A stretch of 64,000 nucleotides of DNA from Okamejei kenojei (lineage: Eukaryota), in the NCBI GenBank assembly GCA_035221665.1, contig CM069168.1, forward strand, positions 17,484,001 through 17,548,000, read 5' to 3'. The notes under the pieces are model-generated. The model saw nothing but the letters and a program-made list of their open reading frames with translations, was not told the DNA's origin and ran no database searches. Made by a program: the position numbers and the translations under genes. Below, piece after piece: positions 6,966 to 55,600 of this stretch (position 1 is its first letter; each line of letters opens with the position of its first letter).

Positions 6966-9900
6966 GTGAATTATTATTCCGTTTTTTTTTCCAGGTGAAT
7001 TGCTCAAATTTTCCACTTTTGTAATGTTGTGTACATATCACCAGCCTGATATGGGTGGCCTTTTAAAGCAAGGAGGCAGAACTACTGGGTGGCAAAAAGG
7101 GGGAAAAATATCAGGTTGTCACGCCAGGATACAAGCTTTCTGTCTTTATTTACAACAGGAAATTGTATTGCAACACAAAGTTAAGGAAGGCGTTGGGAGT
7201 AAGAAAGAAGACAACAAAATTAATTTTCTTATAGTAGACACAAAAATAAATTCTTTATTTGTCAATAAAAATAGAAAATGCTAGACGTATATTCAAAACA
7301 AGACAGTTAATAATCCATCAGGAAGTGGTCTCGACCTGGAATCGTCACCGTGTTGCTTCTCTCCAGAGATGCTGATCTGACCGCTGAGTTTACTCCAGCT
7401 TTTTGTGTCCTTTGACGAGAAACAGTTAACAGATCCAGTGTCGTTGATCAGCTGTTCACTTTGTTAAATTAACAAACGGATGGATTTGCTGTAAGCGTCA
7501 CTGTGTTGGAACACGGTGAAGAATCTAATGGGATGGGGGTTCTTTTTAATAAATTGGTTAAAGATGTTTTTATGGAAATAGTGAGAACCTGTTGCGAATA
7601 CAAGGCAGACATTGGGATGATATGTGGATGTTGAATGAAATTTAATCGCAGTAGAGAGGTGGCTTTCTTAACTCCCCATTTTTTATCGGACCTGGTTTAC
7701 CAATTGATGTGATCTTTTTCTGGTGCCTTTCTTTTCGTGGGTGGTTCCTATTGATCTGTAAAGTGACAGAGAAATGTCTGTAATTGATTACCAATAGCTA
7801 TCCCGTGGGAGGCGAGTTGTACGGGGGGGGGGGGGAATGTTGACTGGGGAGGTGTTTGTTGCTCGGGGGCGTGTTACAGGGTGTGGGGCGCGTTGCACGG
7901 GGTGGTAGTATGCTGCACAAAGGACTGGTGATTCTGGTGAAGGTGATGAATCATGAATGTTGGCTCGCTGGTTAATGATTCTAACTTATTTATTAACCTG
8001 TCCTGAACATTGTGTGATTTACCATTGAGAAATGTAACCCCTGGTCTAATCTGTGCACTCGAGGCAAGACTGTAGCTGCATGGCTACCTTCAGTGCCTGT
8101 CCAAATTTCACTACCAATCAATACCCAACGGCCGCTGCAGGGATGGAATAACTGGCTGTAACAAACTCAGCCTAAGCATCCCACCAGTTGAATGATCAAT
8201 TTGGCTTGCTTTCTGTACAGTTTCTATTGATTGCCCATCTAAGTTTAAGAAAGAACTGGCAGATGCTGGTAAAATTGAATTCTGCACATTAAAAAGCTGG
8301 AGAAAACTCAGCGGGTGAGGCAGCATCTATAGAGAGGAAGGGAATTGAAGACGTTTTTTTCTGGAATTGTGATCTCCGACCGAAACCGTCCAAGCAATCG
8401 ATTTCTCCCCATAGATGCTGCCACACTCGCTGAGTTTCTCCAGCATTTTGTGTCTACCTCCCATCTAAGTTTAATTTCCTTCTGTTTCTGCCCGCAGCTC
8501 GGGGAAGGTTAGAAGGGAACAGCCTAAAGCTAGACTTCCTCACAGGACCACTGGCTCCGGACCCCACTTTGTACCCGTCATGCTACAGTGCCCGTCTGCC
8601 CCGGCCAGCCCCTCGTGTACGTGCGGACGCCCGGGAGATCCTCGAGAGGGGGCAGAGGGGCTCTGTGGGCGTGCTGCTGCAGTTGGAAGGAGTGTCCCTG
8701 CACAGGCAGCCTGCACCAAGAAGTTAGTGGACTCTTTTACTGCTTACATCTGTGTATCCTTCAGCAACAACAAGCAACTGCAGATGCTGCTTTACAAAAA
8801 TAGGCACACAGAGTTGGAGTAACTCAGAAGGTCAGTCAGTTGGGATCGCCCAACTTTACACTCCCAAAATAATGGACAAAAGGTCTAAAATACGGGACCA
8901 AAATTCCCGATGGCAATTAGATTGGACCCGACTCGGCTCGTGGCCTGGGTGTGAGTTCGGCCCGGGTTGCAGGGAACGCACACAATGACCCAGCCGGGGC
9001 CAGCTGAGGAGTTGGCACCCCATCCAACTCAGGAACCGGATGATCAGCGTGAGTAGGAGGGGTGTGTTGGGGTGGTGTCGGGTGGTATAAGCGGAGGTCC
9101 GAAGGGCGGACAGCTGGCTGGGCAGCCGACGGACGGGGCCACGGGCGAGGCGCTGCTGCTGCTGCATTCCGTGGGCTGCCACTACGTGGGACGGGTGAGG
9201 TAGGGAACGGGAGGTCAGCAGCACTCCGACCCGACAGTCCCCTCGACCAAGAGTAATGTGCATAGTCAATTACGGGAGGTGACCGGTTTCCGGGACAAAC
9301 AAAATTTTAGCCCTATATATGGGATGTCCCGACTAATACAGGACAGTTGGCAACCCTATCAGTCAGCATCTCTGGTGAAAACATGGATGTTGATGTTTTG
9401 GGTGGTGCCCTTCCTCAGGTCCTGAGCTGAAATGATACCATATCCTTGTTCTTCCAGAGATGTTGCCCTGACCCTCTGAGTTACTCCAACTCTTTGTGTA
9501 TCTCCATTAGTGTTCCCTGCAATGTCTTGTGCGGATACAGCCATTATTTGCTTATAGTGGGATATCTCCATTAATGAAAAAAAAAACATTAAAAAAACAC
9601 AGTTAATTTTATTAGCAGTGTGCTTGTAGTCTGCTGGTGTTTTGATTTGGGGAGACCTGTTTTGGATTGAAGTGTGTGTAAAATTATAAGAGGCATTGAT
9701 AGGGTAGACAGTCAAAACCTTTTTCCAGGATGGAAAAATCAAACTATCAGATGGCATAGATAAAGGAGGAGAGTGCATGGGGGACATTTTTTTTTGTACA
9801 GATGGTGGTCGGGGTCCTGGTACGCGCTGTCAGAGTGGTGGTGGAGGCAGATGTTAATAGTTAGCCGGCATTCTTTAAGGAGACTTTTGGATAGGCACTT

Positions 9901-12900
9901 AAGACATGAAGGGAATGGATGTGTCGTGAGCAGATAAAGAGTCTGGTATTGGCATCATGTTCGGCACAGACACTCGTGGGCCGATAGGCCTGTTACTGTG
10001 CTGTTCTAGACTTGCAGGCACTAGACTCCAAACGTTTCTGAGTTGGGGGGTCGAGTTTGCGGACTGCTTTTGAAGAGGGGACGGCAACAGTGTGTGTTTG
10101 GCTATTGCATGGTGTTTTGGTGATCTATGCCAGACACCTGGCGGTGCATCTGTGCTCCCATTTATAAACAGGAACAACCTTCCCCACAGTGTCTGTTGCC
10201 CGAACATGACGCCAAGAACCATCTCCAATCAGCCTGCACACATCCGTATCTTCATTCCCCCATATCCATATGCCTATCAAAACATCACCTCTGCCATATT
10301 TATGGAACTTGTTTACAGAAATCCCAGTATGGTTAGATCTTCAGTCATTTAGCCACTGTAAAAATATTCTCTTCAGATCCCTAGAGATGTTTTAATCCAA
10401 TTCATGACAAGTATTAGGCAGGAACAGACCCCTTTGGCCACAAAGTCCACACGACAAGAAGCCAGTAAAATGAGCCTCCTCCAAATCATAAATCCTATTT
10501 CTGGAGGATTGCTCTGCATTATCACCCAAACCACTGCCATGAAGGCTCCACCAGCCTATAATCCCAGGATTTAATAAGATTTTGTTTTCTTGCTAGAGAA
10601 GGATCCCAGGGACCACGAGAAGAAACGTAGCGTCGAATGCGTGAGAACCATAACAATGCAGAGACGAAGACCAGCGGGCGTAACAGAGCGCCCCAAACCA
10701 GTGAAAGCGTTGTGGAAATCCCCCAAGTATGAATCGCATCCATCCCAAGTGATGGCCCGCTTCAGGTAAAGCCCCGGCCTAGGTGTGAGAGAAGTTTCCT
10801 CGGCAGCAGAGAGCAGTGGAGGCTCCTGAAATTATTAGTGAGATGGATAAACCTTGCACAAATGCGTACAGAGTAAAAGACTTGTGTGGTGGAAGTGGTG
10901 TGGTCCCACGTATGAAGGGGTTGGTGTCTGCAGTGGCTGATAAACCTCACCAGTATGGAAGGCTCAGAGCAAACATTGCAGAATCTCCTAAACCTCCGAA
11001 GAAGATCCTTAAGGAAGGGTCTCGACCCGAAACATCACCCATTCCTTCTCTCCAGAGATGCTGCCTGTCCCACTGAGTTACTCCACCATTTTGTGTCTAT
11101 CTTCGATTTAAACCAGCAGTTCCTTCCTACACAGAGAATCCTCCTACATACACACCCATTGTTGTTGGAGTTATTGGATGTAACTGTGACAAACCTCATT
11201 ATATGTCAGTAGAGCCTGTGGCCAAACTCTGCTGTAACTGTGGACTATGTATGGAATTATATTAAATAACTTGAGGAGGAAAAATAAAATATAATGCACC
11301 ATCTTCCAGTTCACTATTGTATGTAAACTGCCCTTTTAAAAATAACCCACATAGTACAGATGAAAGGATAGGCAACATATTTTTGGTGGAACCTTTCATC
11401 GACATTTGCTTATTAAAAAAAAATTGCAGCTAATAATTGCAAGTCCACTTTGTTGCTATCAAAAGGTACGCTTTTCAGGTTGGCACAGTGGCACAGCTGG
11501 TAGAGATGCCGCTCAGCGATGCCACAGACCCGGTTTGACCCTGACCTCCCCCCCTCCCCCCCACCACTGCGCTGGCTGTGTGAGATTGCACGTGCTCTTT
11601 GGGTTTTCATCCCGCAACCTGGCGCAGGTTGCAGAATTTAATATGGCCCCACGTGTGTGTATGGGTGTTGATGCGACAAAGTGGGATAACACACACACAG
11701 ATTGTGAGGGGGCGGCGGGGGTTGGGGGGGGGGGTGGTGGTGTGGAGTCGATGGACGGCCCTGGAAACGATGGGGTTGAAAGACAAGTATTAATTCTCCG
11801 AAAGACCACACACCTCGACCCACAAACTCCCCTAATACCCAGACCTGTAAAAATCCGCCCTACAATCACTCAGGTGTAGGGTTTGTACCAAGATGGTTAT
11901 CACCCATCACAAGTCTAATACAAAGCATAGATGAAGAGACCTCGTCTTAACAACATTAATTCTGTCATGACGTATAGAAAGTCTTCTCCATCAGCATAGG
12001 GACAACACACCCAAACTATCCAGGACACTAATCTCAAAATGCACTAAGGAAGGGACACACTAATAGGTAGATTTTCCCTTTATTCATTATCTGGACACTT
12101 TAAAACTACATTTTTAGGAAAATGTACTAGAATTACTCAGTGTGCCAGTCAGCATCTCGGGAGGGAATGGACAGGTGACGTTATGGCTTCTTCAGTCTGA
12201 AGAAGGGTCCTGACCTGAAACATTGCCTGTCCATCCCCTCCAGAGATGCTGGTGACCCACTGTGATCCTCCAGCACTTTGTGTTTTGCTCTAGATTCCAG
12301 CATTGGCCGTCTCCTGTGTCTCTTGCATTCAGGCATGACTGTAAGTATCATGAGGAGGTCAAATAAGCTGACTACATAGAAAATAGGTGCAGGGGTAGGC
12401 CATTCGACCTGGCCCCTTGAGCCAGCACCCTGCCATTTCAATATGAACATGCTGATCATCCAAAATCAGTATCCCGTTCCTGCTTCCCCCCCATACATCG
12501 GGGCTGCCACCTTGGCTTTCATTTATCAATTTTAATTTCTTCCACAAGATGAGTGTGTCCAAACCTGCTGCATAACTGAGCATTGCAGAGTGTTCCTTAA
12601 ATTATTACCAAAGGCATTTCTGATTTGTGTCTGGTCAAAGACAGTCACAGTGAATACATGCCTGTTACCAGATTGCAGACTTTCCCAAAAGCTGACTTAT
12701 TTATTTTCTGTCTTTTATGTCATTTCTCTTCAGGACAACTCACCCCCCAAGTCTTTGGATAATCAGCAGTACCTTAAAGCTCACTCGCGATGTGGGACTG
12801 GGGTCGGTCCCAGGAGATCCACATCCCCGAGCCCAACCAAAGCAGAGACGTGTGTCGAGGCTCCAGAGGATTCTATCGCAAATGTGAGTGAATTATTGGA

Positions 12901-15900
12901 CAGAATTCACCAAGTATTTAAACGTAGGTAGACAGAAATGCTGGAGAAACTCAGCGGGTGAGACAGCATCTATGGAGCGAAGGAATAGGTGACGTTTTGG
13001 GTCGAGACCTGAAACGTCACCTATTCCTTCGCTCCATAGATGCTGCCTCACTCGCTGAGTTTCTCCAGCATTTCAGTCTATCTTTGATTTTTCCAGCATC
13101 TGCAGTTCCTTCATAAACATTAAGTATTTAAACATGACTGTTTCATGCTTTGTTTAATTTAGAGATACAGCACGGAAACAGCTCTTCGCCCCATTGAGCA
13201 CACAGTCATCTGTTTGCAATAGTTTCATATTATCCCAGTTTTGCATCCACCAACCACACTAGGGGCTATTGACAGAGCCAATTAACCTGCAGACCCGCAT
13301 GTCTTAGTGATGTGGATGTGGGAGGAAACCTACTTGGTCACAGGGAGAACGTGCATACTCCACACAGACAGCACCCGAGGTCAGGATTGAACTTGCGTCT
13401 CTGGCACTGTGAGGCAGCAGCTCTACCAGCTGCGACACTGTGCTGCCCAAATGGTCAAACTGAAGCATTATTCAATCCAAGGACAATATTACCAACTTGC
13501 AAACTCATTGCCTACAACGTGTCTGGGAAAGACTTTTGTGGGAAGTCTTGATAATCATAGAGCATAGAACAGTACAGTACAGGAACAGGCCCTTCAGCCC
13601 ACAATGTCTCTGCCTAACATGATTTCAAGACCAAGTATATGCCTGCACATAATTCATATCCCTCCATTCCCTGCATATCCATGTGCCTATCTAATGTCTC
13701 TTAATTGCCAGGCAACCTTCACCTTCTGTGTAAAAAAAACCACTTGCCACGCACATCTTTACACTTTGCCCCCTCACCTTGAAACTATGCCTTAAACCTC
13801 TGTTATGACCTCTCTGTAAATTTGCTGTTAATGCGAGTAATGAAAGCAAATTTTGTTTCCTGATCATAATTACTAACCTGCTTGTTTTTTTTAATTGCAG
13901 GCTCAAGTCACAGGCGTCGGTATAGATTTCATCAGGCACAACGCCCAGAATGCAAGGAAAATGCCAGTGCGACGTTCCAAATCCCTGCAGTCCCTGACGG
14001 ATGTGCTGGACAGGAAAGAGAAAGAACAGCAGGACTACATCAGCCAGAATAAAGGACAGCTACCGCAGTAGTAAGGAATGCACTATTCATCAATCCTTTT
14101 CCTTCACCTCTTCCGCCATGGTTTAGTTATGCTGCAAGTGGGTGCTATTGGTAGCTTTTATCTCAGAAATTATCCCTGCCTCACTCACCTTAACCTCTTA
14201 CTCAATCCCCGACACAACCTTCCACATATCTCCAAACAGTGGCAGAGACCCAGCTTCAATCCTAACTGTGGGTGCTCTTTGTACGGAGTTTGTNTGACGT
14301 TCTCCCCCACCCGTCTTCTCCCCCGTCCGTGTGGGTTTTCTCCGGGAGCTCTGATTTCCTCCCACACTCCAAAGACGTACAGGTTTGTAGGTTAATTGGC
14401 TTGGGAAAATTGTAAAATGTCCCTGGTGTGTAGGATAGTGTTAGTGTGCGGGGATCACTGGTCGGCGCGGACTCGATGGGCCGAAGGGGCTGTTACTGCA
14501 CTGTGTCTCTAAACTAAACTAACCAAAGATGGCCTGCTCTGCTCTGCCTTGAACGGTCTTGCATTTGATCATCCCTGCTTCTGGCGATTCCTTTACATCT
14601 TTTCCAGAGCTACATTTGGCATTTGCTACCCTGTGAGATCGACCAGCGTTGAATCTCGCTTGCCGAGCCGACCACGGCACTGTGTCCATGACTGTCCCTC
14701 AGGTGGTGAACCCAGAGTCTTGCACCTGCGGCCCTTTGCTCCCTCACCTCTGTCAAGTAGGACACAGTACGGCACAGGAACAGGCTCACAATGTCTGTGC
14801 TGAACATGATACCAGGATAAACTCCTCTCCTCTCCTCCACAAGATCCATATCCCTCCATTCCCTGCATATCCACCATCCAATCCAAAAGCCTCTTAAATG
14901 CCACTATTGATCCTGCCCCCGCCACCACCCTAGCAGTGCACTCCAGGCATCCACCACCTTCTGTGTAAAAACAAAACTTCCCTGCACATCTCCTTTAAAC
15001 TTTGCATCTCTCACCTTAAAGCTAAGCTCTCTGGTCTTTGACATTTCCATCCTGGGAAAAAGGTTCTGTCTGCATTCCATATATAATATACGCCTCTCAT
15101 AATTTTATAAACTTCTATCGTCTCCCCTCAACCTCCAATGCTCCACAGAAAACAATCTAAGTTTGTCTAACCTTTCCTTGTAGCTAATACACTCTTCCAC
15201 CATCCCCTCAGCATTGAAAGCAACTTATACTGAAGGGTTTCATCGTCCATTACATTTCCAAACCACAGTTAGAACGTTTTTACAACTCAGCTTTGGATTC
15301 CCTCATTCACTCAATTAGCTGCTGATTAACCTTGCTCACTCCATTTACAATAATTATGGTTATATACCTCAGTCTTACCCAAATCCTTTTGCAAGGTTTT
15401 AAGTTTGAAAAGTAGAACACGTACAAGGCATGTCCTTTGTTCCAGAGTGAAATTGTCAAATTAAATGTCATTTGCTTTTCTTTCTTTCAGTAAAAACTAT
15501 ATTTTCCATTTTCTTTTTCTCTCAGAACATTCAATAAACTTATCGAATAGTGTAAGGCTTGGATGGAGTGGATGTGGAGAGAATGTTTCCACTAGTGAGA
15601 AAGTCTAGAGACTAAAGGCCGTAGCCTCAGAATTAAGGGACGTTCCTTTAGGAAGGAGATGAGGAGGAATTTCTTTAGTCAATGGGGCGTGAGGTGAAGG
15701 GGTGCATCTGTGGAATTCTTGCCACAGAAGGCGGGTGGAACCAAGTCAAAGGATATGTTTTAAGGCAGAGAAGAAGGCCAGCAGAAGATAGATAATCTTG
15801 ATTAGTTCGGGTGTCAGGGTTTATGGGGAGAAGGCAGAAGAATGGGGTTAGGAGGGAGAGATAGATCAGACATGATTGAATGGCGGAGTAGACTTGATGG

Positions 15901-17379
15901 GCTGATTGGCCTAATTCTGCTCCTATCACTTATGACCTTATAAATCCTCTCATAAATCCTCTCCGTGTTTCCAGTTTAATTGAACGGCGGAATCAATGGA
16001 GGAAAGAGGCGGAAGAGCGACAGAAAAATATCCCCGACCCCAGCATGCCTCCAGGTCACACCAGGATGCCAGAGAATGAAAGACTGGAAACACTCAGTTC
16101 CCTCGAACAAAGTAAGTTTACTGTGCTCTCCCTACTGTAGAGGATAACATCTCTAGGATGACCCGAAACGTCATCTATTCCTTTTATCCAGAGATGCTGT
16201 CTGACCCGCTGAGTTACTCCAACTTTCTGTGTCTTTCCTCTGATGAATTATTGACAGGGTAACAGTTTGTGGATAATACTTGCTCCTGCACCAACTCTGC
16301 ATTTGGGTGAAACAAGCATTTCAGTCCAGCTCGCCCATACACTCGCTGAGAATGTACCGTGTACAGATCACGCTCGGCCAAAGCAGTGCCCAGTGATTGC
16401 AAGTTTTAAACGAATAAGTAAAATCATTTTGCATTTCGAAAAGCAAGAGCTGAAGATGCTGGAAGTCTCAATTAGAAGCAGAATATGGTGATAATATCTG
16501 GTAGGCAAAAGTGCTGGAGAAACTCAGCGGGTGCGGCAGCATCTATGGAGCGAGTTTCATAGATGGACCTTCGCTTCATAGATGCTGCCGCACCCGCTGA
16601 GTTTCTCCAGCACTTTTGTCCACCTTCGATTTTCCTGCGTCTGCAGTTCCTTCTGAACATGGTGTGCATAACATATAGCAGTCAGGCAGTTATCCAATGG
16701 AACAAAAGAAGACAATATTTTGGAGTTAATAACATTTCATCAAGGATCCACACCATCCTGGCCACACACTCATCTCCCTGCTACCTTCAGGTAGAAGGTA
16801 CAGGAGCCTGAAGACTGCAACAACCAGGTTCAGGAATAGCTACTTCCCCACAGCCTTCAGGCTATTAAACTGGCTCGGACAAAACTATGAATATTAATAA
16901 CCCATTATCTGTTATTTGCACTTTATCAGTTTATTTATTCATGTGTGTGTATATATTTATATAATGATATATGGACACACTGATCTGTTTTGTAGTCAAT
17001 GCCTACTATGTTCTGTTGTGCTGAAGCAAAGCAGAATTTCATTGTCCTACCAGGGACACATGACAATAAACTCACTTGAACTTGAACTCATCAGAGCCCG
17101 TTAACTATTCAAGCTACATTGGTGATGCAAGTTGAGTGTTTAAAGTATTTATGTTTTAATTAACTTGAACTACCTGCTCATCTTGTTTAATCTGCTTCCT
17201 GCCAATCCCTACCCCTAGCCCAAAAGCAGCTGATCAAGCAATTGCTGATGTTTCCTGTGCGAGTGGATACGATTGGCATGCAGAATAGACGCGCTGACCT
17301 TGAGAAGAAACTGGCAGAGATCGAAGAGGCCATTAAAATCTTCTCTCGGCCCAAAGTTTTCATCAAAGTTAATGACTGA
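6881..17379 (+). CDS. ENKD1: Enkurin domain-containing protein 1; coding exons 6881..6965, 8498..8722, 10597..10765, 12734..12883, 13901..14070, 15975..16111, 17219..17379
   Basis: Spliced product MSEGPSNISGPIPPDPTLFPDFYRRPISARGRLEGNSLKLD...ILERGQRG..LLQLEG...KALWKSPKY...LKAHSRCG...DFIRHNA...PDPSMPPGHTRMPENERLETL...IEEAIKIFSRPKVFIKVND* matches recalled vertebrate ENKD1 end to end. All introns are GT-AG. One exon is frame-disrupted as assembled. Confidence 0.93.
8249..8459. mobile_element. Fold-back Penelope-derived insertion with 15-bp TSD
   Basis: CCCATCTAAGTTTAA at 8234..8248 and 8460..8474; internal inverted arms. Confidence 0.8.
8498..8722 (+). CDS. ENKD1: ENKD1 coding exon 2
   Basis: ARGRLEGNSLKLDFL...EILERGQRGSVGVLLQLEGVSL; 225 nt, phase 1-1. 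Confidence 0.9.
8840..9358. mobile_element. Non-autonomous hAT element (TAGGGTTGCCAAC-type TIR)
   Basis: Right TIR GTTGGCAACCCTA, degenerate left TIR, 8-bp TSD TCAGTCAG at 8832..8839 and 9359..9366; inserted into a Penelope-derived repeat. Confidence 0.75.
10597..10765 (+). CDS. ENKD1: ENKD1 coding exon 3 (contains indels as assembled)
   Basis: KDPRDHEK...PKPVKALWKSPKY; 169 nt does not give the phase-0 end needed by the next exon. Confidence 0.8.
12734..12883 (+). CDS. ENKD1: ENKD1 coding exon 4
   Basis: DNSPPKSLDNQQYLKAHSRCGTG...; 150 nt; donor GTGAGT. Confidence 0.88.
12924..13121. mobile_element. Fold-back Penelope-derived insertion with 12-bp TSD
   Basis: AAGTATTTAAAC at 12912..12923 and 13122..13133; near-perfect ~75-bp inverted arms. 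Confidence 0.85.
13150..13450 (-). mobile_element. tRNA-derived V-SINE (HE1-like)
   Basis: Reverse complement of the SINE head, V core and tail seen at 42570..42890. Confidence 0.75.
13901..14070 (+). CDS. ENKD1: ENKD1 coding exon 5
   Basis: GVGIDFIRHNAQNARK...KGQLPQ; TACTAAC branch point at 13871. Confidence 0.9.
14243..14523 (+). mobile_element. V-SINE (HE1-like)
   Basis: Core GTGGGTTTTCTCCGGG..TTTCCTCCCACACTCCAAAGACGTACAGGT and (TAAAC)n tail. Confidence 0.8.
14755..15190 (-). mobile_element. CR1 LINE 3' fragment (older subfamily)
   Basis: Minus-strand VVAGAGSIVAFKRLLD..MQGMEGYG; related copy at ~13555..13810. Confidence 0.7.
15552..15938 (+). mobile_element. CR1 LINE 3' fragment
   Basis: Same family as 6320..6620, opposite orientation. 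Confidence 0.8.
15975..16111 (+). CDS. ENKD1: ENKD1 coding exon 6
   Basis: LIERRNQWRKEAEERQKNIPDPSMPPGHTRMPENERLETL. Confidence 0.92.
16740..17088 (+). mobile_element. Rex1/Babar LINE 3' end
   Basis: [29 protein letters not shown]-type sequence, then AATAAA and (CTTGAA)n tail. Confidence 0.8.
17219..17379 (+). CDS. ENKD1: ENKD1 last coding exon (end of enkurin domain)
   Basis: QKQLIKQLLMFPV...LEKKLAEIEEAIKIFSRPKVFIKVND*. Confidence 0.92.
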
Positions 17380-17601
17380 GCAGCTCAGAAAGGTAAAATT
17401 CAGGTTGTAGCAACATTTCTGTTTCTGGTCATTGCTTGGAATAATGGTTATGATGTGAAAGGCTTGGTTGTGATATGAATGGGGAGAAGAGAGTTGAGGT
17501 GTATGAAAACAAACTTGAGCAGTTACCAAATACACAGGACAAGATGTTAAAAATCCAAAGTGCCAAATATCAACTTGCTCCCGGTGGTGATGGGAGCCTT
17601 G

Positions 17602-18095
17602 AGGGCCTGTCCCACTTGCTTGCGAAAAAAAAAAAACAAAATTGGGGCGTGCGTTTGGTGGTGCGACCAAACGGAAGCGGAGTTCACACGCGAAGTTCTC
17701 GCGCGTGACGTCATTTGCCTCATGCATACCAATCAGCTGGGTCAGGGAGGCGGCCGACTGAATTTTGGGCGTCGTCGCACGCGTCGGCGCGGTGACGTCA
17801 ACACGGAATGCCACGCCGGGTGGTGACGTCATCACGCAACGCCACGCGCTAGGCGTACAACGTCAAGACGCTACGTACGACCGCAATGCGCCTGCGTGCC
17901 GACAGGCCGTTGGCGCACGGAGATTTTGGCCACTGCTAGAATTTTGGGGCCCCGCGCGATGTCGGGACCAGCCCCGCACATCTGCACGCTTCTAAGTGGG
18001 ACCGGCCCAGCGCGGCCATACAGTGTCCATACGCCTCAAGCGACCACGAGGTCGTGTAATTTGTGAGCCAAGGTCGCGTAAGTGGGACAGGCCCT
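17602..18095. mobile_element. CpG-rich MITE, PIF/Harbinger-like, downstream of the ENKD1 stop
   Basis: Perfect 16-bp TIRs AGGGCCTGTCCCACTT (17602..17617) and AAGTGGGACAGGCCCT (18080..18095); flanks TTG/TTA. Confidence 0.8.
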
Positions 18096-18164
18096 TTATG
18101 CACTCACCTACGATCCTCCTGAGAAAGGCTAGGCAGACACGTCACGTAAGTGGGCACCTTTTCA

Positions 18165-18455
18165 CTGGTGCAGTGAGCAGAGCTGCTGCCTCACAACAGC
18201 TGAGACCTGGGATTGATCCTGATCCCAATCCCGAGTGTTGTGAAGTTTACGTGATCTTCCTGTGACTGTGTGGATTTCCTCCGGGTGCTCCGGTTTCCTC
18301 CCACTTCACAAAGACATGAAGGTTTGTAGGTTAATTGGCTTCTGTAAACTACCCCTAGAATGTAGGGAGTGGTTGCAAAAGTGGAATTAGTGTGAATGGG
18401 TGATCGATGGTAGGTGTGGATTTGATGGGCCGAAGGTCCTGTTTCTATGCAGTAT
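18165..18455 (+). mobile_element. V-SINE (HE1-like)
   Basis: tRNA-like head, V core TTTCCTCCGGGTGCTCCGGTTTCCTCCCAC, CR1-like tail. Confidence 0.75.
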
Positions 18456-18847: not shown

Positions 18848-18853
18848 AATAAA
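18848..18853 (+). terminator. Candidate ENKD1 poly(A) signal
   Basis: AATAAA followed by AT/GT-rich sequence. Confidence 0.45.
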
Positions 18854-20927: not shown

Positions 20928-20988
20928 ATGAGCAAGAGGAAAGCGCCGCAGGAGACGCTGAACGAGGGGATCACCGACTTCCTGATCG
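20928..20988 (+). CDS. POLB: POLB exon 1
   Basis: [20 protein letters not shown]; donor GTAATG. Confidence 0.95.
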
Positions 20989-35900: not shown

Positions 35901-38900
35901 CCAGAGTGAGGCCCAGCGAAAATTGGAGGAGCAGCACCTCATATTTCGCTTGGGCAGGTTAAACCCCAGCGGTATGAACATTGACTTCTCTAATTTGAGA
36001 TAGTCCTTGCTTTCTCCCACCTTCCCCTCCCCCTTCCCAGCTCTCCCACAGCCCACTGTCTCCACCTCTTCCTTTCTTTCTTTCCCCCCCGGACATCAGT
36101 CTGAAGAAGGGTCTCAACCCGAAACGTCGCCTATTCCTTCACTGCATAGATGCTGCCTCACCCACTGAGTTTCCTCAGCATTTTTGTCTACCTTCGATTT
36201 TTCCAGCATCTGCAGTTCTTTCTTAAACATCAGTATATGGGTTTCAGTTGTACAAGAAGATGATTCATCATCGCAGGCATATTTGGCAATGGATGGACAA
36301 GTTGCGTTGGCCTTGGCTGTGAATGAATAATGAAAAGCTATTCCTGTTTCTGCTGGCCTGCTCCATCGGCAGTGTAGTCTATTATTATAATCCCTGAATA
36401 AATTTAAATGGTTTAATTGACCTCTCCCCATTTAATTACAGAGTGTCTGAGGAACTCTGCAGGTCAGGTAGCATCTGTGGGGGGAGTGGACACTGCATGA
36501 TCTGTTGACTTCCTTTTGTGTTTTGCTTGAGATTCAAGCACCTGCAGTTTCTTGTGTCCCCATTCTACCTACCCTATGATAAGGTGTGTGCTTCCTATAG
36601 CTAGTCAAGGCCATGCATTTTGTTCACATTCAGGCATTCAACAGCAGAGGGCACTGTACTTCTTCCCTAGGATGCAGATAGACTGAAGGAATTAGATGCT
36701 AGTGCTGAACTCAAATTGCTTTAAACGGTTTTTAATTGCTGAAAACCGTGTCTTTGCAAGAGGATGCTCACCTTCATCACGTTGCAATATGAAACTACAG
36801 AATAAAGACTGAATGCTTTAAAATAGGAAATAAATCCTGCAGACCTGGCTACGATTAAGGCTATCTTTGGTCACCTTTTGAAGGAAATTGTGAAAAGTTC
36901 AGTTTAGTTTATTGAGGTACAGTGAAAAGCTTTTGTAGCGTGCTATCCAGTCAGCAGAAGAACAATACATGATTACAATGGAGCCATTCGCAGTGTTTAG
37001 ATACATGGTAAGAAAATAAAGTTCAGTGCAAGGTAAAGCTAGGAATATCTGATCAAAGATAGTCTGAGGTAGACAAAAATGCTGGAGAAACTCAGTGGGT
37101 GAGGCAGCGTCTATGGAGCGAAGGAATAGGTGACCCGAAATGGCACCTATTCCTTCGCTCCATAGATGCTGCCTCACCCGCTGAGTTTCTCCAGCATTTT
37201 TGTCCACCTTCGATTTTTCCAGCATCTGCAGTCCTTTCTTAAAGATAGTCTGAGGATCACCAATGGGGTGGATTCAGTTGCCTGATAACAGCTGGGAAGA
37301 AACTGTCCCTGAATCTGGAGGTGTGCGTTTTCACACTTCTGTACCTTTTGCCCGATGGGAGAGGGGAGAAGAGGGAGTGGCCAGGGTACAACTCGCCCAT
37401 GCTGATGTTGGCAAAAGGGAGCGTGTGACCTGCTACCGTTTTGAGTGAAGAATTGGCATTCTTAAAATGATACCAATCAAATTAAGTCCAAATTTGAAGC
37501 CGTCTATAATCAGTTTTTGTCATAGAAAATTAATTCAAATTGTTTAGAAGTTACTTGGATCCAGGAAAGTAACTTGCGACCTTACTATATATATATAGCT
37601 CAATGCAATTAAAATAGAAAGTGCTGGAAATATTTAACATTCCCGGCAGCATCTTAGATGAAACAGCATTAACATGTTAGGTCAACAACCTTTCATTCAC
37701 ATGTTGCCCATTGACCTGAACAGGTGCATTTGTGCATGTCTTCCCTTGTTGGTGGACATTCACTTAATGAATCTTCACAACAGCAAAGGGTTCTATTTAA
37801 CCTGACCCCTCGCTTCGTGAATGTTTCGATGAGCTCAAGGAGGCAGCCCACCACCACCGTATCGAGTGGAACTAAGGATGGGCAATGTCCAGTTCTTCAA
37901 AATGAATTTCAAAAAGGTGTCCTGCTCATCATGTTATTCAACCATGCCTTTTTTATATCATTACTAATGTATAATTGAGCCTGTCATACCAACTTGATTG
38001 GAGTTGAGGTAGAGTAATTAGATCAAATTTTGCAATGCAAGAATAATTTCAAAGCTACTTTCACATGACAGCTTTAGGCCATTCTCAATATTGAATGTAG
38101 ACACAAATGCTGGAGAAACTCAGCGGGTGCAGCAGCATGGAGCGAAGGATTTTTTTTCTTCGCTCCATAGATGCTGCTGCACCCGCTGAGTTTCTCCAGC
38201 ATTTTTGTCTACTTTCGATTTTCCAGCATCTGCAGTTCCATCTTAAACTCAATATTGAATGGATTGTTCCGATTCCATTTTCAGGTTTCTTGCATAAATA
38301 AATGTCACCTGGATGCTGTCTGGTTTAGTTTTTCATTGTCACGAGGCAAAGCTTTTTTGTTGTGTGCTGTCCAGTCAGCGAAAAGACTATACGTGATTAC
38401 AATCAAGCTATCCACGGGTATGCTTGATGATGAGTGAACACCTTTTTGAAATTCATTTTAAAGATACAAAGTGAAGGATTTCCCAAGGAACAGTACATTA
38501 ACAGAAATAGAGTGTGAGAAAATTGGCTGGGGAAAGAAATCCGACAAAAATGCTGAGCGACTTAAAAGATTTACTTTGAACCATTTGGACGGTTTCATGT
38601 TAACATCATGCCATGCAACGTTACCACATTTTGTAATAAATTTGTTTACAAGCATCGAGGCTACATGTGCATTTAATTTTAATCCCACTTCACTAGCCAT
38701 TGTAAGGAACCATCTGACTGTTCACATCATTAAATCGTGCATAGTAGCACCATTATTGTATGTCGTTTGATAAATGGGATTCTAGTTTGATCACTGACTT
38801 TGCTAATTCAGTCCTCACAAATGGACACAGCAAGGAAACTAAATCCAGCCTTGCTAGGCTACTTACTAGAATGCCAGAAGAAGATTGGAGCAAAAGGGTT

Positions 38901-40660
38901 TGGACAAATGGGGAAGTAGCTATTCCTGAACCTGGTCGTTGCAGTTCTCAGGCTCCTGTACCTTCTACCCGAAGGTAGCAGGGAGATGAGTGTGTGGCCA
39001 GGGTGGTGTGGGTCCTTGATGATGCTGCCAGCCTTTTTGAGGCAGCGACTGTGGTAGATCCCCTCGATGGAAGGAAGGTCAGAGCCAATGATGGACTGGG
39101 CAGTGTTTACTACTTTTTGTAGTCTTTTCCTCTCCAGGGCACTTAAGTTGCCGAACCAAGCCTCGATGCAACCGGTCAGCAAGCTCTCTACTGTGCCCCT
39201 GTAGAGGTTAGAGAGAGTCCTCCTGGACAGACCGACTCTCCGTAATCTTCTCAGGAAGTAGAGGCGCTGATGAGCTTTCTTAATAATTGCATCTGTGTTC
39301 TCGGACCAGAAAAGATCTTCACAGATGTGCACGCCCAGGAATTTGAAGCTCTTGACCCTTTCAACCATGTTGATATAAACAGGACTGTGGGTCCCCATCC
39401 TACTTCCAAAGTCCACAATCAGTTCCTTGGTTTTGCTGGTGTTGAGGGCCAGGTTATTGTGCTGGCACCATATGGACAGTCGCTCGATCCCTCTTCTGTA
39501 CTCCGACTCATCCCCATCAGTCTCACAACAGTGGTGTCGTCAGCGAACTTGATGATGGAGTTCACAATCTGACCGGCTACGCAGTCATGAGTATAGAGTG
39601 AGTACAGCAGTGGTCCAGAGCGGAGTGGAGGGCCAGCAAGATCGCGTCCACCGTTGATCTGTTGTGGCGGTAAGCGAACTGCAGTGGGTCCAGGTTTTTG
39701 TCGAGGTAGGAGTTGATTTGCGCCATGATCAACCTCTCGAAGCACTTCATCACCACAGGCGTTAGTGCCACAGGTCGATAGTCATTGCGGCACGTCACCT
39801 TACTCTTCTTGGGCACCGGTATAATTGATGCCCTTTTGAGGCATCAAAGAAATCCTACATCGGGGTTGGTAACGATGAATTTTGATTTCAGCAAAGTAGA
39901 CATGAGTCACAGAGTTGCGTGGAAGCAGACCCTTTGAGCTATTGAGAAGGAGGAGCTATTAGATATCGGGGTGATATTTTGCCTGGCATGGATGAGATCT
40001 CTCTCAGTTGCCATGGCAATTAAGGGAGCCGTTACAAAGATTTTTGCTGGATTGGTGTGGATGAGAAAAAGTTTGGCATGGACTCGATGGGCCAAAGGGC
40101 CTGTTTATGCACTGTGCAATTCCATGACTCTATACTGAAACACGAACTCATCCATTTGTGAAGTCAGGAACTCAGTTGTTCAGACAGCAGTTGCGGAGGG
40201 AATGGGCAAGCAACATGAAGTGCTGGAGGACCTCAGCATGTCAGGCAGCAACCGTGCAGTGTTCATCCCTCCCTCCCTAGATGCTGACTGTCCCTCTGTG
40301 ATCCTCCAGTACTTGTTTTTTTTTGTTCAAAACTCAGGCATCTGCAGTTTTTGTGTCTCTTTATTTCTGAATATCCAGTGAGTTGTCTTTTAATATAAAA
40401 TAATCAATAAATGCAGCAAAATATCTCTGCTGAATAGCAAGTTTAGCCTGATCTTTGCCAATTTCCATTGACTTATTTTATCTATGAACATGCTGTTCTT
40501 TCATTTTTATTTTATTTACTTGGGTGGGGACGCTGAGACCACAGGATTTATGTTATTCCCTTTCAGCAACAATCCCCTCACAACAAAACAGTCGCTCATC
40601 AAGCAAGTGGGAAAATAAATAGAATTCTCACATTTTTATGAGATTATGTTAACCTATATT

Positions 40661-40698
<38 letters not shown>

Positions 40699-46600: not shown

Positions 46601-49600
46601 CCAGAGACCCGGGTTCTATCCTGACTACGGCTGCTGTCTGTGCGGAGTTTGTACGTTCTCCCCGTGACCTGCGTGGGTTTTCTCGGAGATCTTCGGTTTC
46701 CTCCCACACTCCAAAGACGTACAGGTTTGTAGGTTAATTGGCTTGGTAAATGTAATAATTGTCCCTAGTGGGTATAGGATAGTGTGGGCCGAAAGGGCCT
46801 GTTTCCATGCTGTATCTCTTAACTAAACTAAAAAAAATTGATATCTCTCCAATAACTCTTATCAATTTCTACTAACACTCCAATATAATGTGATCTATTG
46901 GAATGTATCACAGGTTAATGTGGCAATTGTTTGGTCCTACGAAAAATGGCGGAGTTGTAAAAGCAGCAGGTCTATCTTTAGATGTGAAGTCCAAATTTTA
47001 AATGTGAAGCATTCATTATCCATTTGAGTTACTTCTGTTAACCCTTTCTGCTTTCAGTTTTGTATTCATCTTGCTTTTAATTCTGCTACTTCTCATTCAC
47101 TCCATATGTTCTATCATGGCTTGAATCTATTTTGCAGTACCTTTTTGAAGGCCTTAAAATCAATTCCTGTTTTCAATAGAGTTGTGGTTCAGAACTTTTA
47201 CAGTTATGGTGGAGGTTCAACTTTTATAGTTAGTGGTTTTTCTTTATTGGGATGCATCACAGCTTGGTTTGGGGACAGCTACATCCAAGACTGCAAGAAA
47301 TGGCAGAGAAATGTGGACGCAGTCCAGACCATCACACAAACCAACCTCCCTTCCTTTCCATTGGCAAGGCCACCAGCATAATCAAAAACGAGTTGCATCC
47401 CGGTCACTCCCGCTTCTCTCCTCTCCCATCAAGCAAGAGGTACAGAAGGCTGAAAACGCACACCCCCACATTTAGCGACAGTTTCTTCCCAGCTGTTATT
47501 AGGCAACTGAACCACCTTACTGGATAAGTAGACAACTGGGATTCTTTAGACTTTAGACAGCACAATGGCGCAGCAGTAGAGTTGCTGCCTTCCAGCGCCA
47601 GATCCCCAGGTTCGATCCTAACCACGGGTGCTGTCTGTATGGAGTTTGTACATTCTCCCTGTGACCACATGGGTTTTCACCGGGCATTCCGATTTCCTCC
47701 TACATTCCAAAGACATAGAGGTTTTCATGTTATTAGGCTTCTGTAAATAGCCCCTAGTGGGTAGGATACGAAACTGGGATAACATGGAACTTGTGCTTGG
47801 GTGATCACTGGTCTGTGCAGACTTGGTGGGCCCAAGGGCTTGTTTCCATGCTGTATCTCTAAAATAAAATAAACTCAATTCTAAAGTAATGTTTATATTG
47901 AAATGCACTAAACTCTTTATCATTTCTTGGGAACTTTACTTTCAAAAAGAAAATAAATCTCTCTGAAAGGAGAAACAAAGTCAACCTGTATAGGAAGGAA
48001 CAGTTTCAACCGAAGACAGACTCTCAGTGGGACAGGCAGCATCTCTGGAGAGAAGAGATGGGTGACATTTTGGGTCGAGACCCTTTTTCAGACTGATTAG
48101 ATTCGGTCTGAAGAAGGGTCTCGACCCGAAACATCACCCATTCCTTCTCTCCAGAGATGCTGCCTGTCCCGCTGAGTTGCATTTTGTGTCTAACAAAGTC
48201 AATATTTCAGGATAAGATCAATCACCTAGTTACATTAATTCTTTGCTCTGACCACAAGGCTGATGGCCTGATGAACTTTTCCAGCATCTTCGGTTTATCT
48301 CAGATTTGCCGCATTCCTGCGGCAGCTGAGGAAACACACAATCTGCCACAGGCAATGATGGTCCAATTCTATACGGCCATCGTAGAGTCTGTCCTCACCT
48401 TCTCCATCATGGTCTGGTTTGGCTCAGCCACCAAGCACGACATCCGGAGGCTGCAGCGAATCGTTCGATCAGCAGAGAAGGTTGTTGGCTGCAACCCCCC
48501 CCCCCCCCCCCATCGATGAACGGTACACTGCAAGGGCCAGGAAGCGAGCGGGTAAGATCGTCTCTGTCCCTCTGGCACTTCCCTCTGGAAGGCGACTCCG
48601 GACTGTCAAAACTGCCACAGCCAGACATAAAAACAGCTTTATTTCCACGAGCAGTAGCACTACTCAATAACTAAAAATCTGTAGCTTCCTTTTGCTCTGG
48701 TATTTTATTTCATTCACATGTTTAAACTATAATGTTTATTCTGAATGTTTTAATGTTTTATGTTTTGTTCTTAATTGTTTGTATGTCGTGTTGTTACTTG
48801 CGAGCGGAGCACCAAGGCAAATTCCTTGTATGTGTACATACTTGGCCAATAAACTTCCTTCATTCATTCATTCATTCATTCATTCATTCATTCATTCGTC
48901 TGCAGTGTTTTGCTTTTGAAAAGGTTTGAAATTCATGTTGCTGCCAAGCCCAAAGGCATGAGATGATTTATGGAGAACTTGAAAAAGAATATCTACCTGG
49001 CCGTCTGCTCCTGTAAAAAACTTTTGTTTTTTAATTATTGAAGTGGGTGGGGTGAAGATCATAAGGTATCAGTGAAAACTAAATGATCAGTACAGCTGCT
49101 GACATGCCTGAGGCAATGGCTGCAAGCCCATTAAAACCTTTTGGTTTTATGCCATATCCATTGCCCTCCATAATGTTTGGGACATAGACCCATCATTTAT
49201 TTATTTGCCTCTGTACTCCACAATTTGAGATTTGTAATAGAAAAGAATCACGTGGTTAAATTGACAGATTTTAATTAAGACCGTTTTTATACATTTTGGC
49301 TTCACCATGTAGAAATTACAGCAGTGTTTATACATAGTTTCCCCATTTCAGGGCACCGTGATGTTAGGGACACAGCAATGTCATGTAAATGAAACTAGTC
49401 ATGTTTAGTATTTTGTTGCAAATCCTTTGTATGCAATGACTGCTTGATTCATGGACATCACCAGTTGCTGGGTGACTTCTCTGGTGATGCTCTGCCAGGC
49501 CTGTATTGCAGCTATCTTTAGCTTATGCTTGTTTTGGGGGCTAGACCCCTTCAGTTTTCTCTTCATCATATAAATTCAGATCGCGTGATTAAGTTCACCA

Positions 49601-52600: not shown

Positions 52601-55600
52601 GTGCAGTGTAGTTCAGTGTGGTGTCGTTCAGTCTAGTGTATGGAAGATGGATGGTCGGAGTGGACTCAGTGGGCCAAAGGGCCTATTTCCATGCTGTATC
52701 TCTAACACTAATCTACCGGAGAAGAGAACTAATCTCACTTGCCTTCTGTACAGGAACCGGTTGGACAGTGAAGTCTGAGTGACGACTAGGTTTCAGTGAT
52801 GCAGGGTTGACACTGTCACCCAGACAGGCTCAGACAGAAGATAAGGTGGGCAGCAGAGATTTGGCTCAACATTTGTTCTCTGATATTTAAAAACACAAAA
52901 TTCTTAAAAATAACTAAAACTTTAAAAAAAACCTCATCTTTCTCTCCCCGTTCAAACCCATCAAAGTCTTTAGAATCTCAGATCTAAATCGTGTCTGAGT
53001 GTTGATACTGCTGTGGATTGGAAGGTAGTGATGAATTTGCTGCTATATATTAGTCAACATGTTTTGGAATTCTGCAATGGCAAATTCTGTCCATAACTTA
53101 GTAAAATGTTAACAGTTGCCAGTAATATTTAGCCTAATCATTTAAGCGATGGATCCACCAGAATCACTGCGATCCAGACCACATTTATCTGATGGAGAAA
53201 AGGAATGGGTGACACTTGGGGCTAGACCTGCTTCAGAATGAGGGTCAGTGGAGAGGGAAAATAGAGATATGAAAAGTGTGCCTTTTTCCGCGCTGTATCT
53301 CTAAACTAAACTAAACTAAAAGAAAGTGACAAAACAGCTAGCCTGCCATTCTTGGCTTCACGTTTCTGGCAACTTGTTCGATACGTTTTTTGCTAAAATG
53401 AAAGATTTGCAAGACCCTGAAATAAAATGATTTGTGGTATTTAATCATGTCCATACACTATCACTTTTTAATTATAACCTATCTCTCAGCGGAAAGAGCC
53501 ATGACCACTTTTTGTAATAAAAGTGGATGCCGGGTGGTATGGATTGTGGTTAATTGTAACTGAGCTAAATTGAATACAGTGTTATTAGTGGTGAGGCAGC
53601 TGCTGCCTGTTGGTCTGTTTAGGATGAACTATTATCAGATAGTTGTGCATCTTTGAAGTGCTGGTGGAGACTTTGCCTGAAGCTTTGATAGTGGAGGCAT
53701 CGATCAGGCAATAGTCTGTTTTACTACCTTGTCTGAATATTGATTGCCCGTTGAATCACAGCATTGCAACTTGCTGTCTCTGCTTCCCTGCTTACCTGCT
53801 GGAGCAGCCGGCCCAAGAAGCCTTTTTGTGACAGCTGCTTTGGAGACACCGATGAGAAGTATTATTATATTTTGAACAACAGAACCATTGTAAACTTCAT
53901 TTGGCACAGACCGACCTTCCCTTACTGTGGTCTTACAGTATATTCTGTAACCCTAATATCCAGATTTGACCTATATGTTTCCAGACCCTTTTTCAGACTG
54001 ATGCAGAAGTGCAGTGTAGTTCAGTGTGGTGTCGTTCAGACTAGTATGGAAGATGGATGGTCGGAGTGGACTCAGTGGGCCAAAGAGCCTATTTCCATGC
54101 TGTATATAGGTCATAGGTCGCCAAATATGTTCAAAATGTTGACATGTCGTGGGGTGACGCCTGTATGGTTGTGAGTAGTCGCCCAAAGTGTCGTATCTTT
54201 TTCTGGTCGCTGCTGGGTTTTCAACATTTTGACATTTTTCGGCGGCCTGCTGCGACTATGACGGGCAGCAGTGAGATTGCCACAAATTAAAGGCTATTTA
54301 ATGCGCTGCCTTTAATGATGAGGATCAAAGAAACCCTGAACTACTTGGCCCATTGATCAGTACAGGGTGACAACCACCATACTTCTCAGTTTGCAACTCA
54401 CCATTTCATAATGGATATCATAAAGGCCTTTTAACTGGGTGCAGTTTTGACCTTCTCACATCAAGAGTAACTGGCAGCATGGGCAGAAGGGTTTCTCAAA
54501 AGAGTCGCTTTTACATGAGGTAGAGTGTGATAGACTGAACCCACAGGATGCCCAGAGCTCCACATAGAACCACATGGTACATCTAAACGACTACCTGAAC
54601 TAAAAATCATAGCCTCAAACACATTTCTCCTTCATGAGACTGACATAGGGTCTTTGCTCACAGAAGATTCTTAGCAGATCAGCCCTCGTTGTGTGCACAT
54701 TGTAAGCAACTCTTGGTCAATGATCATTGGTGTTCAACAACATTGCATCAGTGAAGTAATAGGTGTCCTATTCCTTCTCTCCAGAGATGCTGCCTGCCCC
54801 GCTGAGTTACTCCAACTTCTTGTGTCTATCTTCAGTGTAAACCAGCATCTGCAGTTCCTTTTTCTCATTCTATTTCTAATTTGTATTTGCATAACACTTA
54901 AATTGTCAGTAATAAATTCCGAGGAAGATGGATAAGGTCCATCAAACGAATGAATTTGGCGAAGCTCATGCAGGCGGCCTTTAATGAAGGAGCCATGTAC
55001 AAGCAGCTGCTTGTAGATGCGCTATTCTATGCTCGGTGCACTTTGAGGAGGATCGCATATCTGTGGTTAGTAATAAAACAAGGTTGGATTATACTTAAGT
55101 AAAACATTTCTTCAGCATGTAAGTTATGAACAATATCACTATCAGCATAGGCGTCGCAGTTTTAGAAAATATATATGGATTTAACAAAATAATATCATAT
55201 CCTAATTGAATAGAAAATTCAATTGATCTGTTGGCAGATCAATTTCCCTCCTTGGATAAATAAAGTTCTATCGTATTGTAAAAGTTCTCCTGCAAAACCT
55301 GTAATGAACTGTTTTGAACTGCAGAAAATACATTCGATATATTTACACTTGCAACTATTTTTCTAAAAGTCGGATTGCAGATTGTTTCATATTGCTTATT
55401 GTCAGTTAGAACTTATGACCAGTACACCCATGTGTCGGAGGGAGCTGCAGATATTGGTTTAGATGGAAGATAAACACAAAATGCTGGAGTAACTCAGCGG
55501 GACAGGCAGCATCTCTGGAGAGAAGGAACGGGTGACGTTTCGGGACATTTGTGTCTAACAGTACACCCATGATTCATTGTTTCTGAATGAACAAAAATAC

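What the first reader, a model, noticed from the sequence alone, without database searches (positions are those of the whole stretch)
8234..55571. Family of short fold-back Penelope-derived insertions with TSDs and a fixed internal breakpoint
Seen: many 100-220 bp insertions made of two inverted arms of the terminal repeat found on GIY-YIG-bearing copies (32969..33457, 35847..36229). At least seven have 11-16 bp TSDs (8234/8460, 12912/13122, 32953/33458, 37055/37241, 38084/38248, 47974/48192, 55420/55559), so each is an independent insertion. One arm nearly always stops at the same point (..TTTTGTCTAC / GTAGACA..), while the other carries an extra ~35-nt tail (..TTTTCCAGCATCTGCAGTTC..TAAAC). 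The fold-back point differs between copies. The non-inverted GIY-YIG copy at 32969 ends exactly at the GTAGAC point, without the tail. Established: Penelope-like elements have inverted pseudo-LTRs and short 3' tails. Inference: reverse transcription starts about 35 nt inside the RNA end and the 5' junction is resolved by inversion, producing a very high-copy class of mini hairpin retroposons in introns and UTRs.
Basis: partly seen in the sequence, partly recalled or inferred. Interest (0 to 1): 0.7.

Follow-up and report, generated by a model that had tools for sequence, protein, structure and literature searches.

The report
Double-ended Penelope retrotransposon insertion stumps
These short mirror-image DNA inserts are real, very abundant stumps of a known kind of jumping gene (Penelope-like), and their ends suggest that both cut ends of the chromosome likely start copying the element's RNA, each at a different fixed site.

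Summary
Real, and mostly a known layout. All seven named target-site duplications (TSDs) are exact (11-16 bp), but only five flank fold-backs. The arms are a ~135-nt terminal cassette of Penelope-like elements with a Neptune/Nematis-type linker (RT plus GIY-YIG in one frame). In 1.36 Mb sampled across the genome: 673 arms, 122 head-to-head pairs (about 250,000 genome-wide), TSD mode 14 bp, empty paralogous sites for 9 copies. Inverted pLTR, one-sided tail, TSD and two internal RT start sites are in print. The sample adds three numbers. One tail per pair: 81 of 98 (49 expected). The tailed arm is the 5'-shorter in 14 pairs and the longer in 8, which simple snap-back cannot give. Best reading: both target ends likely prime, one at each start site, and run off near the RNA's 5' end; the products are probably dead. 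No RNA or biochemical test was possible. This scan reported the same pattern many times on other DNA.

The parts
8234..8474 (.). Fold-back insertion: TSD 8234-8248, tailed arm on - (to 8357), spacer, tailless arm on + (8377-8459), TSD 8460-8474
12912..13133 (.). Fold-back, 12-bp TSD; tailless arm on -, tailed arm on +; junction in the self-complementary helix II of the hammerhead-like motif
37055..37255 (.). Fold-back, 15-bp TSD, inserted in another repeat; 8 empty paralogous sites hold the TSD once
38084..38261 (.). Fold-back, 14-bp TSD, in a DNA polymerase beta intron; left junction shared by contigs of four runs from organisms A-D
47974..48202 (.). Fold-back, 11-bp TSD; both arms reach the fixed 5' boundary; tail on the - arm
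62924..63049 (.).
27104..27296 (.). Fold-back, one tail, no TSD found
16443..16656 (.). Fold-back scored as two tails, no TSD found
12121..12310 (.). Older fold-back, both arms at the 5' boundary, one tail
56354..56548 (.). Older fold-back, one tail, doubtful 12-bp TSD
59323..59524 (.). Older fold-back, no tail on either arm
40213..40349 (.). Decayed fold-back, one tail
9359..9504 (.). Decayed fold-back
55420..55571 (-). Single tailed arm with 13-bp TSD; not a fold-back
32953..33473 (-). 5'-truncated non-inverted copy, 489 bp between 16-bp TSDs, ends at the breakpoint without tail
33156..33455 (-). C-terminal GIY-YIG endonuclease part of the ORF with the two cysteines inside the core
35847..36229 (+). 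5'-truncated copy: endonuclease end, 3' UTR, cassette (36097-36229), tail 36192-36229
36098..36130 (+). Fixed 5' boundary (36098, model position 3) and minimal hammerhead-like motif: core 36101-36107, helix II 36109-36120, predicted cut after 36128
   Evidence: motif definition from PMC4209133
33625..33696 (+). Host exon of DNA polymerase beta (context)

Best explanation
These hairpins are very short head-to-head insertions of the terminal cassette of endonuclease-bearing Penelope-like retrotransposons, likely made afresh at each site when both 3' ends of one staggered cut of about 14 bp prime reverse transcription, probably one at each of two fixed start sites 38 nt apart. Shown: origin from RT-GIY-YIG elements, true insertion with TSD, two 3' end zones, one tail per pair, a fixed 5' boundary, and both arms from the same subfamily. 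Inferred: the cassette also lies at the 5' end of the transcript (cassette, tail, 5' UTR, ORF), so an enzyme starting there would run off after about 95 or 135 nt, which would explain the uniform small size. The two cDNA ends would then be joined through short complementarity or a few added bases. The products would lack the sequence downstream of the start sites and so be dead ends.
For: RT and GIY-YIG in one 525-aa open frame; about 3.8-kb unit in tandem. TSD score of 9 or more in 37 of 122 against 3 of 242; length 13-16 in 26 of 31; empty paralogous sites for 1 of 7 window copies and 8 of 31 sampled copies. One tail in 81 of 98 classifiable pairs, 48.8 expected if arms were independent, p 6e-11, stable at three thresholds; tail left 43, right 38. 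Tailed arm shorter at its 5' end by 20 nt or more in 14 pairs and longer in 8 (4 and 3 among TSD-bearing pairs); two long tailless bodies carry a short tailed inverted arm (L013, L044) and one the reverse (L017). Arms agree at 8 of 9 two-state columns far above chance, e.g. 79 of 86 against 46. 5' boundary: 86 of 122 pairs; 156 of 429 single arms with unique flank, upstream pyrimidine share 0.49-0.54 against 0.69-0.82 in copies that extend; the near-full-length copy L120 and 8 of 15 non-tandem 5'-region loci begin at positions 2-13. In vitro precedent: two internal start sites bounding the tail, both target strands cut and extended, predicted dimer (PMC11167929, parts 1-2 of 4 read).
Against: All mechanism steps are read from dead copies about 10-25% diverged. 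59 of 81 one-tail pairs differ by under 20 nt at the 5' end and do not discriminate; deletions at the hairpin tip after insertion could make some asymmetry; profile ends inside helix II are uncertain by about 10 nt. 17 of 98 pairs have two tails or none, and 2 of the 6 long copies with an inverted arm have equal ends, 1 more is ambiguous. Only 37 of 122 pairs show a TSD. A cap-derived G is not established: 36 of 156 overall, 10 of 17 in a post-hoc subset (p 0.008), 8 of 22 in hairpins (p 0.26). 15 of 30 5'-region loci extend upstream of the boundary, so longer templates exist. The boundary also looks like a 3' splice site. The in vitro data are from a Poseidon, not a Neptune-type element.
Confidence: 0.62

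Rival explanations
1. One cDNA is made, folds back on itself at a short palindrome, is copied back, and the tail difference arises when the endonuclease resolves the hairpin intermediate (self-priming as proposed in PMC3846280; tail by EN-mediated resolution as in PMC8557442).
For: 63 of 122 pairs overlap at the junction and several junctions sit in built-in palindromes; both arms come from one subfamily; it gives one tail per pair naturally.
Against: It predicts a fixed polarity between tail and 5' length; both polarities occur (14 and 8; 11 and 7 where one arm reaches the boundary and the other starts at 26 or later). A 2-kb tailless body with a short tailed inverted arm (L044) is hard to get this way. 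The two ends match RT start sites in vitro (PMC11167929).
Confidence: 0.17
2. Same insertion mechanism, but the fixed 5' boundary is a splicing landmark (3' splice site or branch point that stops RT), not the transcription start.
For: Families with different 3' UTRs keep a pyrimidine tract, a branch-point-like word (motif recalled, read by eye) and CAG just before the boundary; in D. virilis the intron end maps to the 5' end of helix I (PMC4209133, part 2).
Against: Element bases fade over positions 6 to 0 rather than switching at 4/5; no ORF-end-to-cassette spliced junction among 314 anchored arms (one weak candidate, probably an old family's UTR); no GT..AG joint among the 15 listed of 45 in four putative RNA runs (contigs only, weak).
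Confidence: 0.12
3. The hairpins or solo cassettes are a non-autonomous family that is transcribed and mobilised as a unit (retrozyme- or SINE-like).
For: About 1.4 million arms against far fewer long copies; the cassette holds an initiator-like word (recalled consensus) and a hammerhead-like core, intact in 133 of 286 arms.
Against: Of 16 listed same-junction comparisons among 135 hairpins, most lie at built-in palindromes or short shared words; the identical rare junction (3 copies) sits in a larger shared repeat. Same-direction neighbours are few (33 against 122); 5' ends show no peak at the ribozyme cut (38, 40, 38 per 10-nt bin); no clear one-strand A-to-G scar.
Confidence: 0.07
4. A MITE or foldback DNA transposon with terminal inverted repeats.
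For: Inverted arms and TSDs.
Against: Ends are asymmetric, TSD length varies from 10 to 19 bp, and the arms are the 3' end of an RT-GIY-YIG element.
Confidence: 0.02

Closest known systems
Insertion unit of EN+ Penelope-like elements with inverted pLTR, one-sided 30-40 bp tail and TSD (Pen2a_Av in PMC3846280, passages; Fig. 2 legend of PMC8557442, passages)
   Same: Head-to-head inverted pLTR, tail on one end, TSD of variable length, partial tandems, palindromes at the junction.
   Different: Here most units have no body at all (median 190 bp), reach about 250,000 copies, and the rules can be counted; TSD mode is 14 bp against 8-10 bp in the Adineta examples.
PAc, Poseidon of Anolis carolinensis (PMC11167929, parts 1-2 of 4 read)
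   Same: Two internal RT start sites bound the tail; hammerhead upstream; AT-rich targets (TSDs 65% AT against 56%).
   Different: PAc is Penelope/Poseidon and starts 111-118 nt inside the ORF; here the linker is Neptune/Nematis-type and the tail ends about 34 nt before the likely ATG. The parts read do not link the two start sites to inverted pairs.
Minimal hammerheads of metazoan PLEs (PMC4209133, parts 1-2 of 4 read)
   Same: CUGANGA core, extra base before helix II, palindromic helix III region, 2-bp helix I as in D. virilis; that paper already notes pairs of motifs 100-700 bp apart on opposite strands in Schistosoma.
   Different: Catalysis untested here; insertion ends do not mark the cut site.
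Non-LTR retrozymes (10.64898/2026.07.22.740005, parts 1-3 of 5 read)
   Same: Gene-less derivatives of PLE pLTRs with a type I hammerhead, also found in a chondrichthyan.
   Different: Retrozymes are direct tandem repeats; these are inverted pairs or single arms bounded by the fixed 5' boundary and the two 3' sites.
L1 twin priming
   Same: Both target ends prime and the two cDNAs join by microhomology, giving an inversion within one TSD.
   Different: In L1 the inverted piece copies a different part of the RNA and the other end is poly(A); here both arms copy the same stretch from two sites 38 nt apart.

Membership tests
EN+ Penelope-like element (parent) | Single ORF with RT followed by C-terminal GIY-YIG | tested here: met
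   L034:1345-2919(-): RVT_1 E 2e-5 and GIY-YIG E 1.5e-4 in one 525-aa frame, both just under Pfam cut-offs; RVT_1 above cut-off in L035, GIY-YIG above cut-off in the window copy
EN+ Penelope-like element (parent) | [quoted passage not shown] | tested here: met
   Read in the translation against the definition in PMC8557442
EN+ Penelope-like element (parent) | Partial tandems forming pLTRs | tested here: met
   L117, L118, L119; 15 of 30 loci
EN+ Penelope-like element (insertion unit) | Inverted 5'-truncated copy and 30-40 bp tail on one end | tested here: met
   122 head-to-head pairs, 81 of 98 with one 38-nt tail
EN+ Penelope-like element (insertion unit) | TSD of variable length at a true insertion | tested here: met
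   empty paralogous sites
EN+ Penelope-like element | Hammerhead motif in the pLTR (sequence and pairing) | tested here: met
   Core intact in 133 of 286 arms; helix II 85-88% paired at 4 pairs; helix I only 2 pairs; no Rfam match at gathering score
EN+ Penelope-like element | Hammerhead self-cleavage | not testable with these tools
   needs in vitro RNA; no 5'-end peak at the cut site
EN+ Penelope-like element | Retained spliceosomal intron | tested here: inconclusive
   splice-like signals at the boundary, no spliced copy seen
Neptune clade | CX2-5CxxC linker between RT and EN (shared with Nematis) | tested here: met
   C-x4-C-x2-C in L034, L035, L042 translations; definition
Neptune clade | RT groups with named Neptune elements | not tested
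   no clade-named reference among the 120 listed hits
Non-LTR retrozyme | Direct tandem units each with a hammerhead | tested here: not met
   33 same-direction neighbours against 122 head-to-head
Non-LTR retrozyme | Circular RNA intermediate | not testable with these tools
   only contigs of guessed RNA runs were offered
MITE / DNA transposon | Symmetric fixed terminal inverted repeats and constant TSD | tested here: not met
L1-type twin priming | Inverted and direct parts copy non-overlapping RNA; poly(A) end (recalled) | tested here: not met
   arms overlap in element coordinates and end at fixed non-A sites

The most novel reading that the evidence does not exclude
A Penelope-type RT-endonuclease dimer grips one RNA at two start sites 38 nt apart and extends both ends of a 14-bp staggered cut in one event. 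The one-sided tail and the inverted pLTR of all such elements would then be one phenomenon, and a quarter of a million stumps in this genome would record both start sites and the transcription start.
Probability: 0.35. Interest if true: 0.62.

Novelty: new member of a known kind. Interest (0 to 1): 0.36.

Why it matters
How Penelope-like elements build their inverted ends and one-sided tail is called undefined in PMC8557442 and is left open in the parts of PMC11167929 read here. The counts here (one tail per pair, both polarities, 14-bp stagger, fixed 5' boundary) turn that into a direct prediction for an assay that already exists. For annotation, a cassette covering about 4.6% of the sampled DNA could be mistaken for a MITE or a retrozyme family; it is better filed as truncated PLE ends. 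The element itself is not a new system.

Tried and rejected
Rfam scan of the window: 0 matches. MFE folding of three cassette stretches gave z of 0.45, 0.70 and -0.47, no support for unusual stability. Cap-derived G: not established. 5'-end peak at the hammerhead cut: absent. One-strand A-to-G scars: 2 of 135 hairpins flagged (5:1 and 8:0 with 11 other changes), totals 119 against 101, judged chance. Junction spacers templated from nearby DNA: 5 of 27 against 5 of 27 in the control. Spliced copies: none. Empty orthologous site: not seen; the 38084 copy's left junction is present in all four runs laid, and 37055 was not resolved because repeats swamped the joint table. RNA: no RNA holder listed on record; four guessed RNA runs were contigs only and could not show starts. 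A genome search with the recurrent-junction hairpin L131:5680-5870 returned no candidates, which shows nothing because common words are skipped. Rows dropped before counts: 24 of 122 pairs with an unclassifiable arm (tail test); one self-hit, L164, from the empty-site list; window copies kept out of all sample counts except the 135. Literature: 7 searches; 'twin priming' with 'penelope' and 'inverted' gave 2 listings, neither read, neither about PLE mechanism by title; the two searches on Penelope in sharks and skates listed no paper on this family by title or start of abstract. Most subscription papers, Repbase/Dfam and all supplements (including those of PMC11167929) were not seen and may already hold this family or idea.
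Full report
Observation. The seven named direct repeats are exact, 11-16 bp. Mapping the copy at 35847-36229 on the window shows head-to-head pairs at 8234, 12912, 37055, 38084 and 47974, one tailed single arm at 55420, and the long non-inverted copy at 32953 that ends at the breakpoint without tail. A profile built from 126 real copies plus the window copy (136 positions; position 3 = window 36098) finds 55 arms and 13 head-to-head pairs in the window. At least one flanking exon is DNA polymerase beta.

Parent element. 33156-33455 (-) encodes a GIY-YIG domain with the two cysteines of the PLE CCHH motif (definition in PMC8557442, passages). A genome search with it rang on 133,580 candidates, 150 scored. 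Walking upstream gave a frame holding RT and GIY-YIG together, a C-x4-C-x2-C linker of Neptune/Nematis type and a unit of about 3.8 kb in partial tandems. The closest named proteins, 63-69% identical, are from sharks and rays, so the host is likely a cartilaginous fish. No intact full-length ORF was among the copies read. At least four families with 3' UTRs of about 100 to 350 nt share the same terminal cassette. In 28 of 30 loci holding the element's 5' region the tail runs straight on into it, so the tail is not the end of the RNA.

Genome sample. 136 stretches of 10 kb at round-number coordinates on the large contigs hold 673 arms, none on reversed DNA. Neighbours within 60 bp are head-to-head in 122 cases, tail-to-tail in 25, same-direction in 33. 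This scales to about 1.4 million arms, 4.6% of the DNA, and about 250,000 hairpins (bootstrap 199,000-298,000); 100 of 122 are 100-220 bp. TSDs scoring 9 or more flank 37 of 122 pairs against 3 of 242 shuffled pairs. Among the 31 scoring 10 or more, 26 are 13-16 bp (mode 14) and they are 65% AT against 56%. The window copy at 37055 has 8 empty paralogous sites with the TSD once, and 8 of the 31 sampled copies have such sites (one self-hit dropped). No empty orthologous site was seen: the 38084 copy is shared by four runs from organisms A-D.

Three fixed points. TSD-defined outer ends fall at positions 90-101 (26 of 62) or 128-136 (31 of 62). Exactly one arm is tailed in 81 of 98 classifiable pairs, against 48.8 expected for independent arms (p 6e-11), on either side (43 left, 38 right). 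Upstream of these the pyrimidine share is background, unlike the 90 copies that continue into the 3' UTR; element bases fade between positions 6 and 0. The near-full-length copy L120 and 8 of 15 non-tandem 5'-region loci begin at positions 2-13, while 15 of 30 loci extend further upstream. The word there fits an initiator consensus (recalled) and also a 3' splice site. Just inside lies a minimal hammerhead-like motif with a 2-bp helix I (PMC4209133); 5' ends show no peak at its cut site. An 8-bp stem pairs positions 53-60 with 111-118 in 88-93% of arms, without covariation, so the upstream end zone lies in its loop and only tailed arms can close it.

Mechanism. If one cDNA snapped back and copied itself, the second arm would be contained in the first, so the tailed arm would never be the 5'-shorter one; a fixed staggered cut on a hairpin intermediate would also give one polarity. 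Both polarities occur: tailed arm shorter by 20 nt or more in 14 pairs, longer in 8, 59 uninformative; 4 and 3 among TSD-bearing pairs; two long tailless bodies have a short tailed inverted arm, one the reverse, two have equal ends, one is ambiguous. Both arms come from one subfamily (84% identity against 76%; 8 of 9 two-state columns concordant far above chance), which excludes chance neighbours but not one versus two RNA molecules, nor later conversion. The simplest reading is two primings from the two target ends, coordinated so that each uses one of the two start sites, followed by run-off near the RNA's 5' end and joining (63 of 122 junctions overlap, 33 have spacers of 4 nt or more; spacers are not templated nearby above control). 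This matches the in vitro findings for PAc of two internal starts, cutting and extension of both strands and a predicted dimer (PMC11167929, parts 1-2 of 4). It is inferred, not shown. Self-propagation of hairpins got no support.

What is known. Inverted pLTR, one-sided tail, TSD and junction palindromes are described (PMC3846280, passages; PMC8557442, passages); transcription starts inside the upstream pLTR in D. virilis (PMC2377424, passages and introduction); opposite-strand pairs of minimal hammerheads 100-700 bp apart were noted in Schistosoma (PMC4209133, parts 1-2); gene-less tandem derivatives are retrozymes (10.64898/2026.07.22.740005, parts 1-3 of 5). My seven searches listed no paper giving the one-tail rule, the two polarities or the fixed 5' boundary, but the library lacks most subscription papers and I saw no supplements or repeat databases. 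This scan has noted the same pattern often: 91 findings in at least 19 genomes hold all the search words, and 62 notes in this genome fit 'Penelope hairpin'; several reach the same double-priming reading. My reading was written down before those look-ups; they are not independent support.

Verdict. A real, very abundant set of stump-sized insertions of a known kind of retrotransposon. It is worth keeping as a large natural record that makes an open mechanistic question testable, not as a new element. Interest 0.36.

Noticed in passing
window about 20928 to at least 35290 (+): DNA polymerase beta gene: the exon at 33625-33696 matches solved POLB; an N-terminal POLB-like start near 20928 and an exon near 35218 were recognised by eye from recalled motifs.
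   Followed up: partly
window 3514-5717 and 21009-24412: Long C/T-rich low-complexity tandem stretches, the second in the first POLB intron and holding the N runs.
   Followed up: no
window 59609-59837 and 61619-61954: A second, unrelated palindromic repeat family with nested inverted arms, possibly a non-autonomous DNA transposon.
   Followed up: no
L184:1636-2154 and L131:5687-6170: A young larger repeat carries two hairpins in opposite orientation; two neighbouring hairpins share about 130 identical central bases but have different outer ends, as if converted from each other.
   Followed up: partly
L174:6425 and L030:9701; L164:5147 and L138:3015: Hairpins or tiny inverted arms with the same flanks at two loci, so passively copied inside other repeats.
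   Followed up: partly
L094:960-1500: A 27-bp GC-rich minisatellite of variable copy number inside the 5' half of the element's ORF.
   Followed up: no
L245:1511-1519 and 1462-1472: The word at the breakpoint recurs right after the tail end, so the two end zones are each close to a copy of the same short motif; a possible recognition signal.
   Followed up: no
L216:7450-7830: Two hairpins side by side whose TSDs overlap, as if the second landed in the TSD of the first.
   Followed up: no
L125 (G000:C6:107230500-107240000): Large head-to-head inversion of the element's 5' half with an internal deletion.
   Followed up: no
proteins P0004, P0064: Ray gene models named as a kinase-domain and a chitinase-domain protein match this element's ORF at 64%, so PLE sequence has entered public annotations or been exonised.
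   Followed up: no
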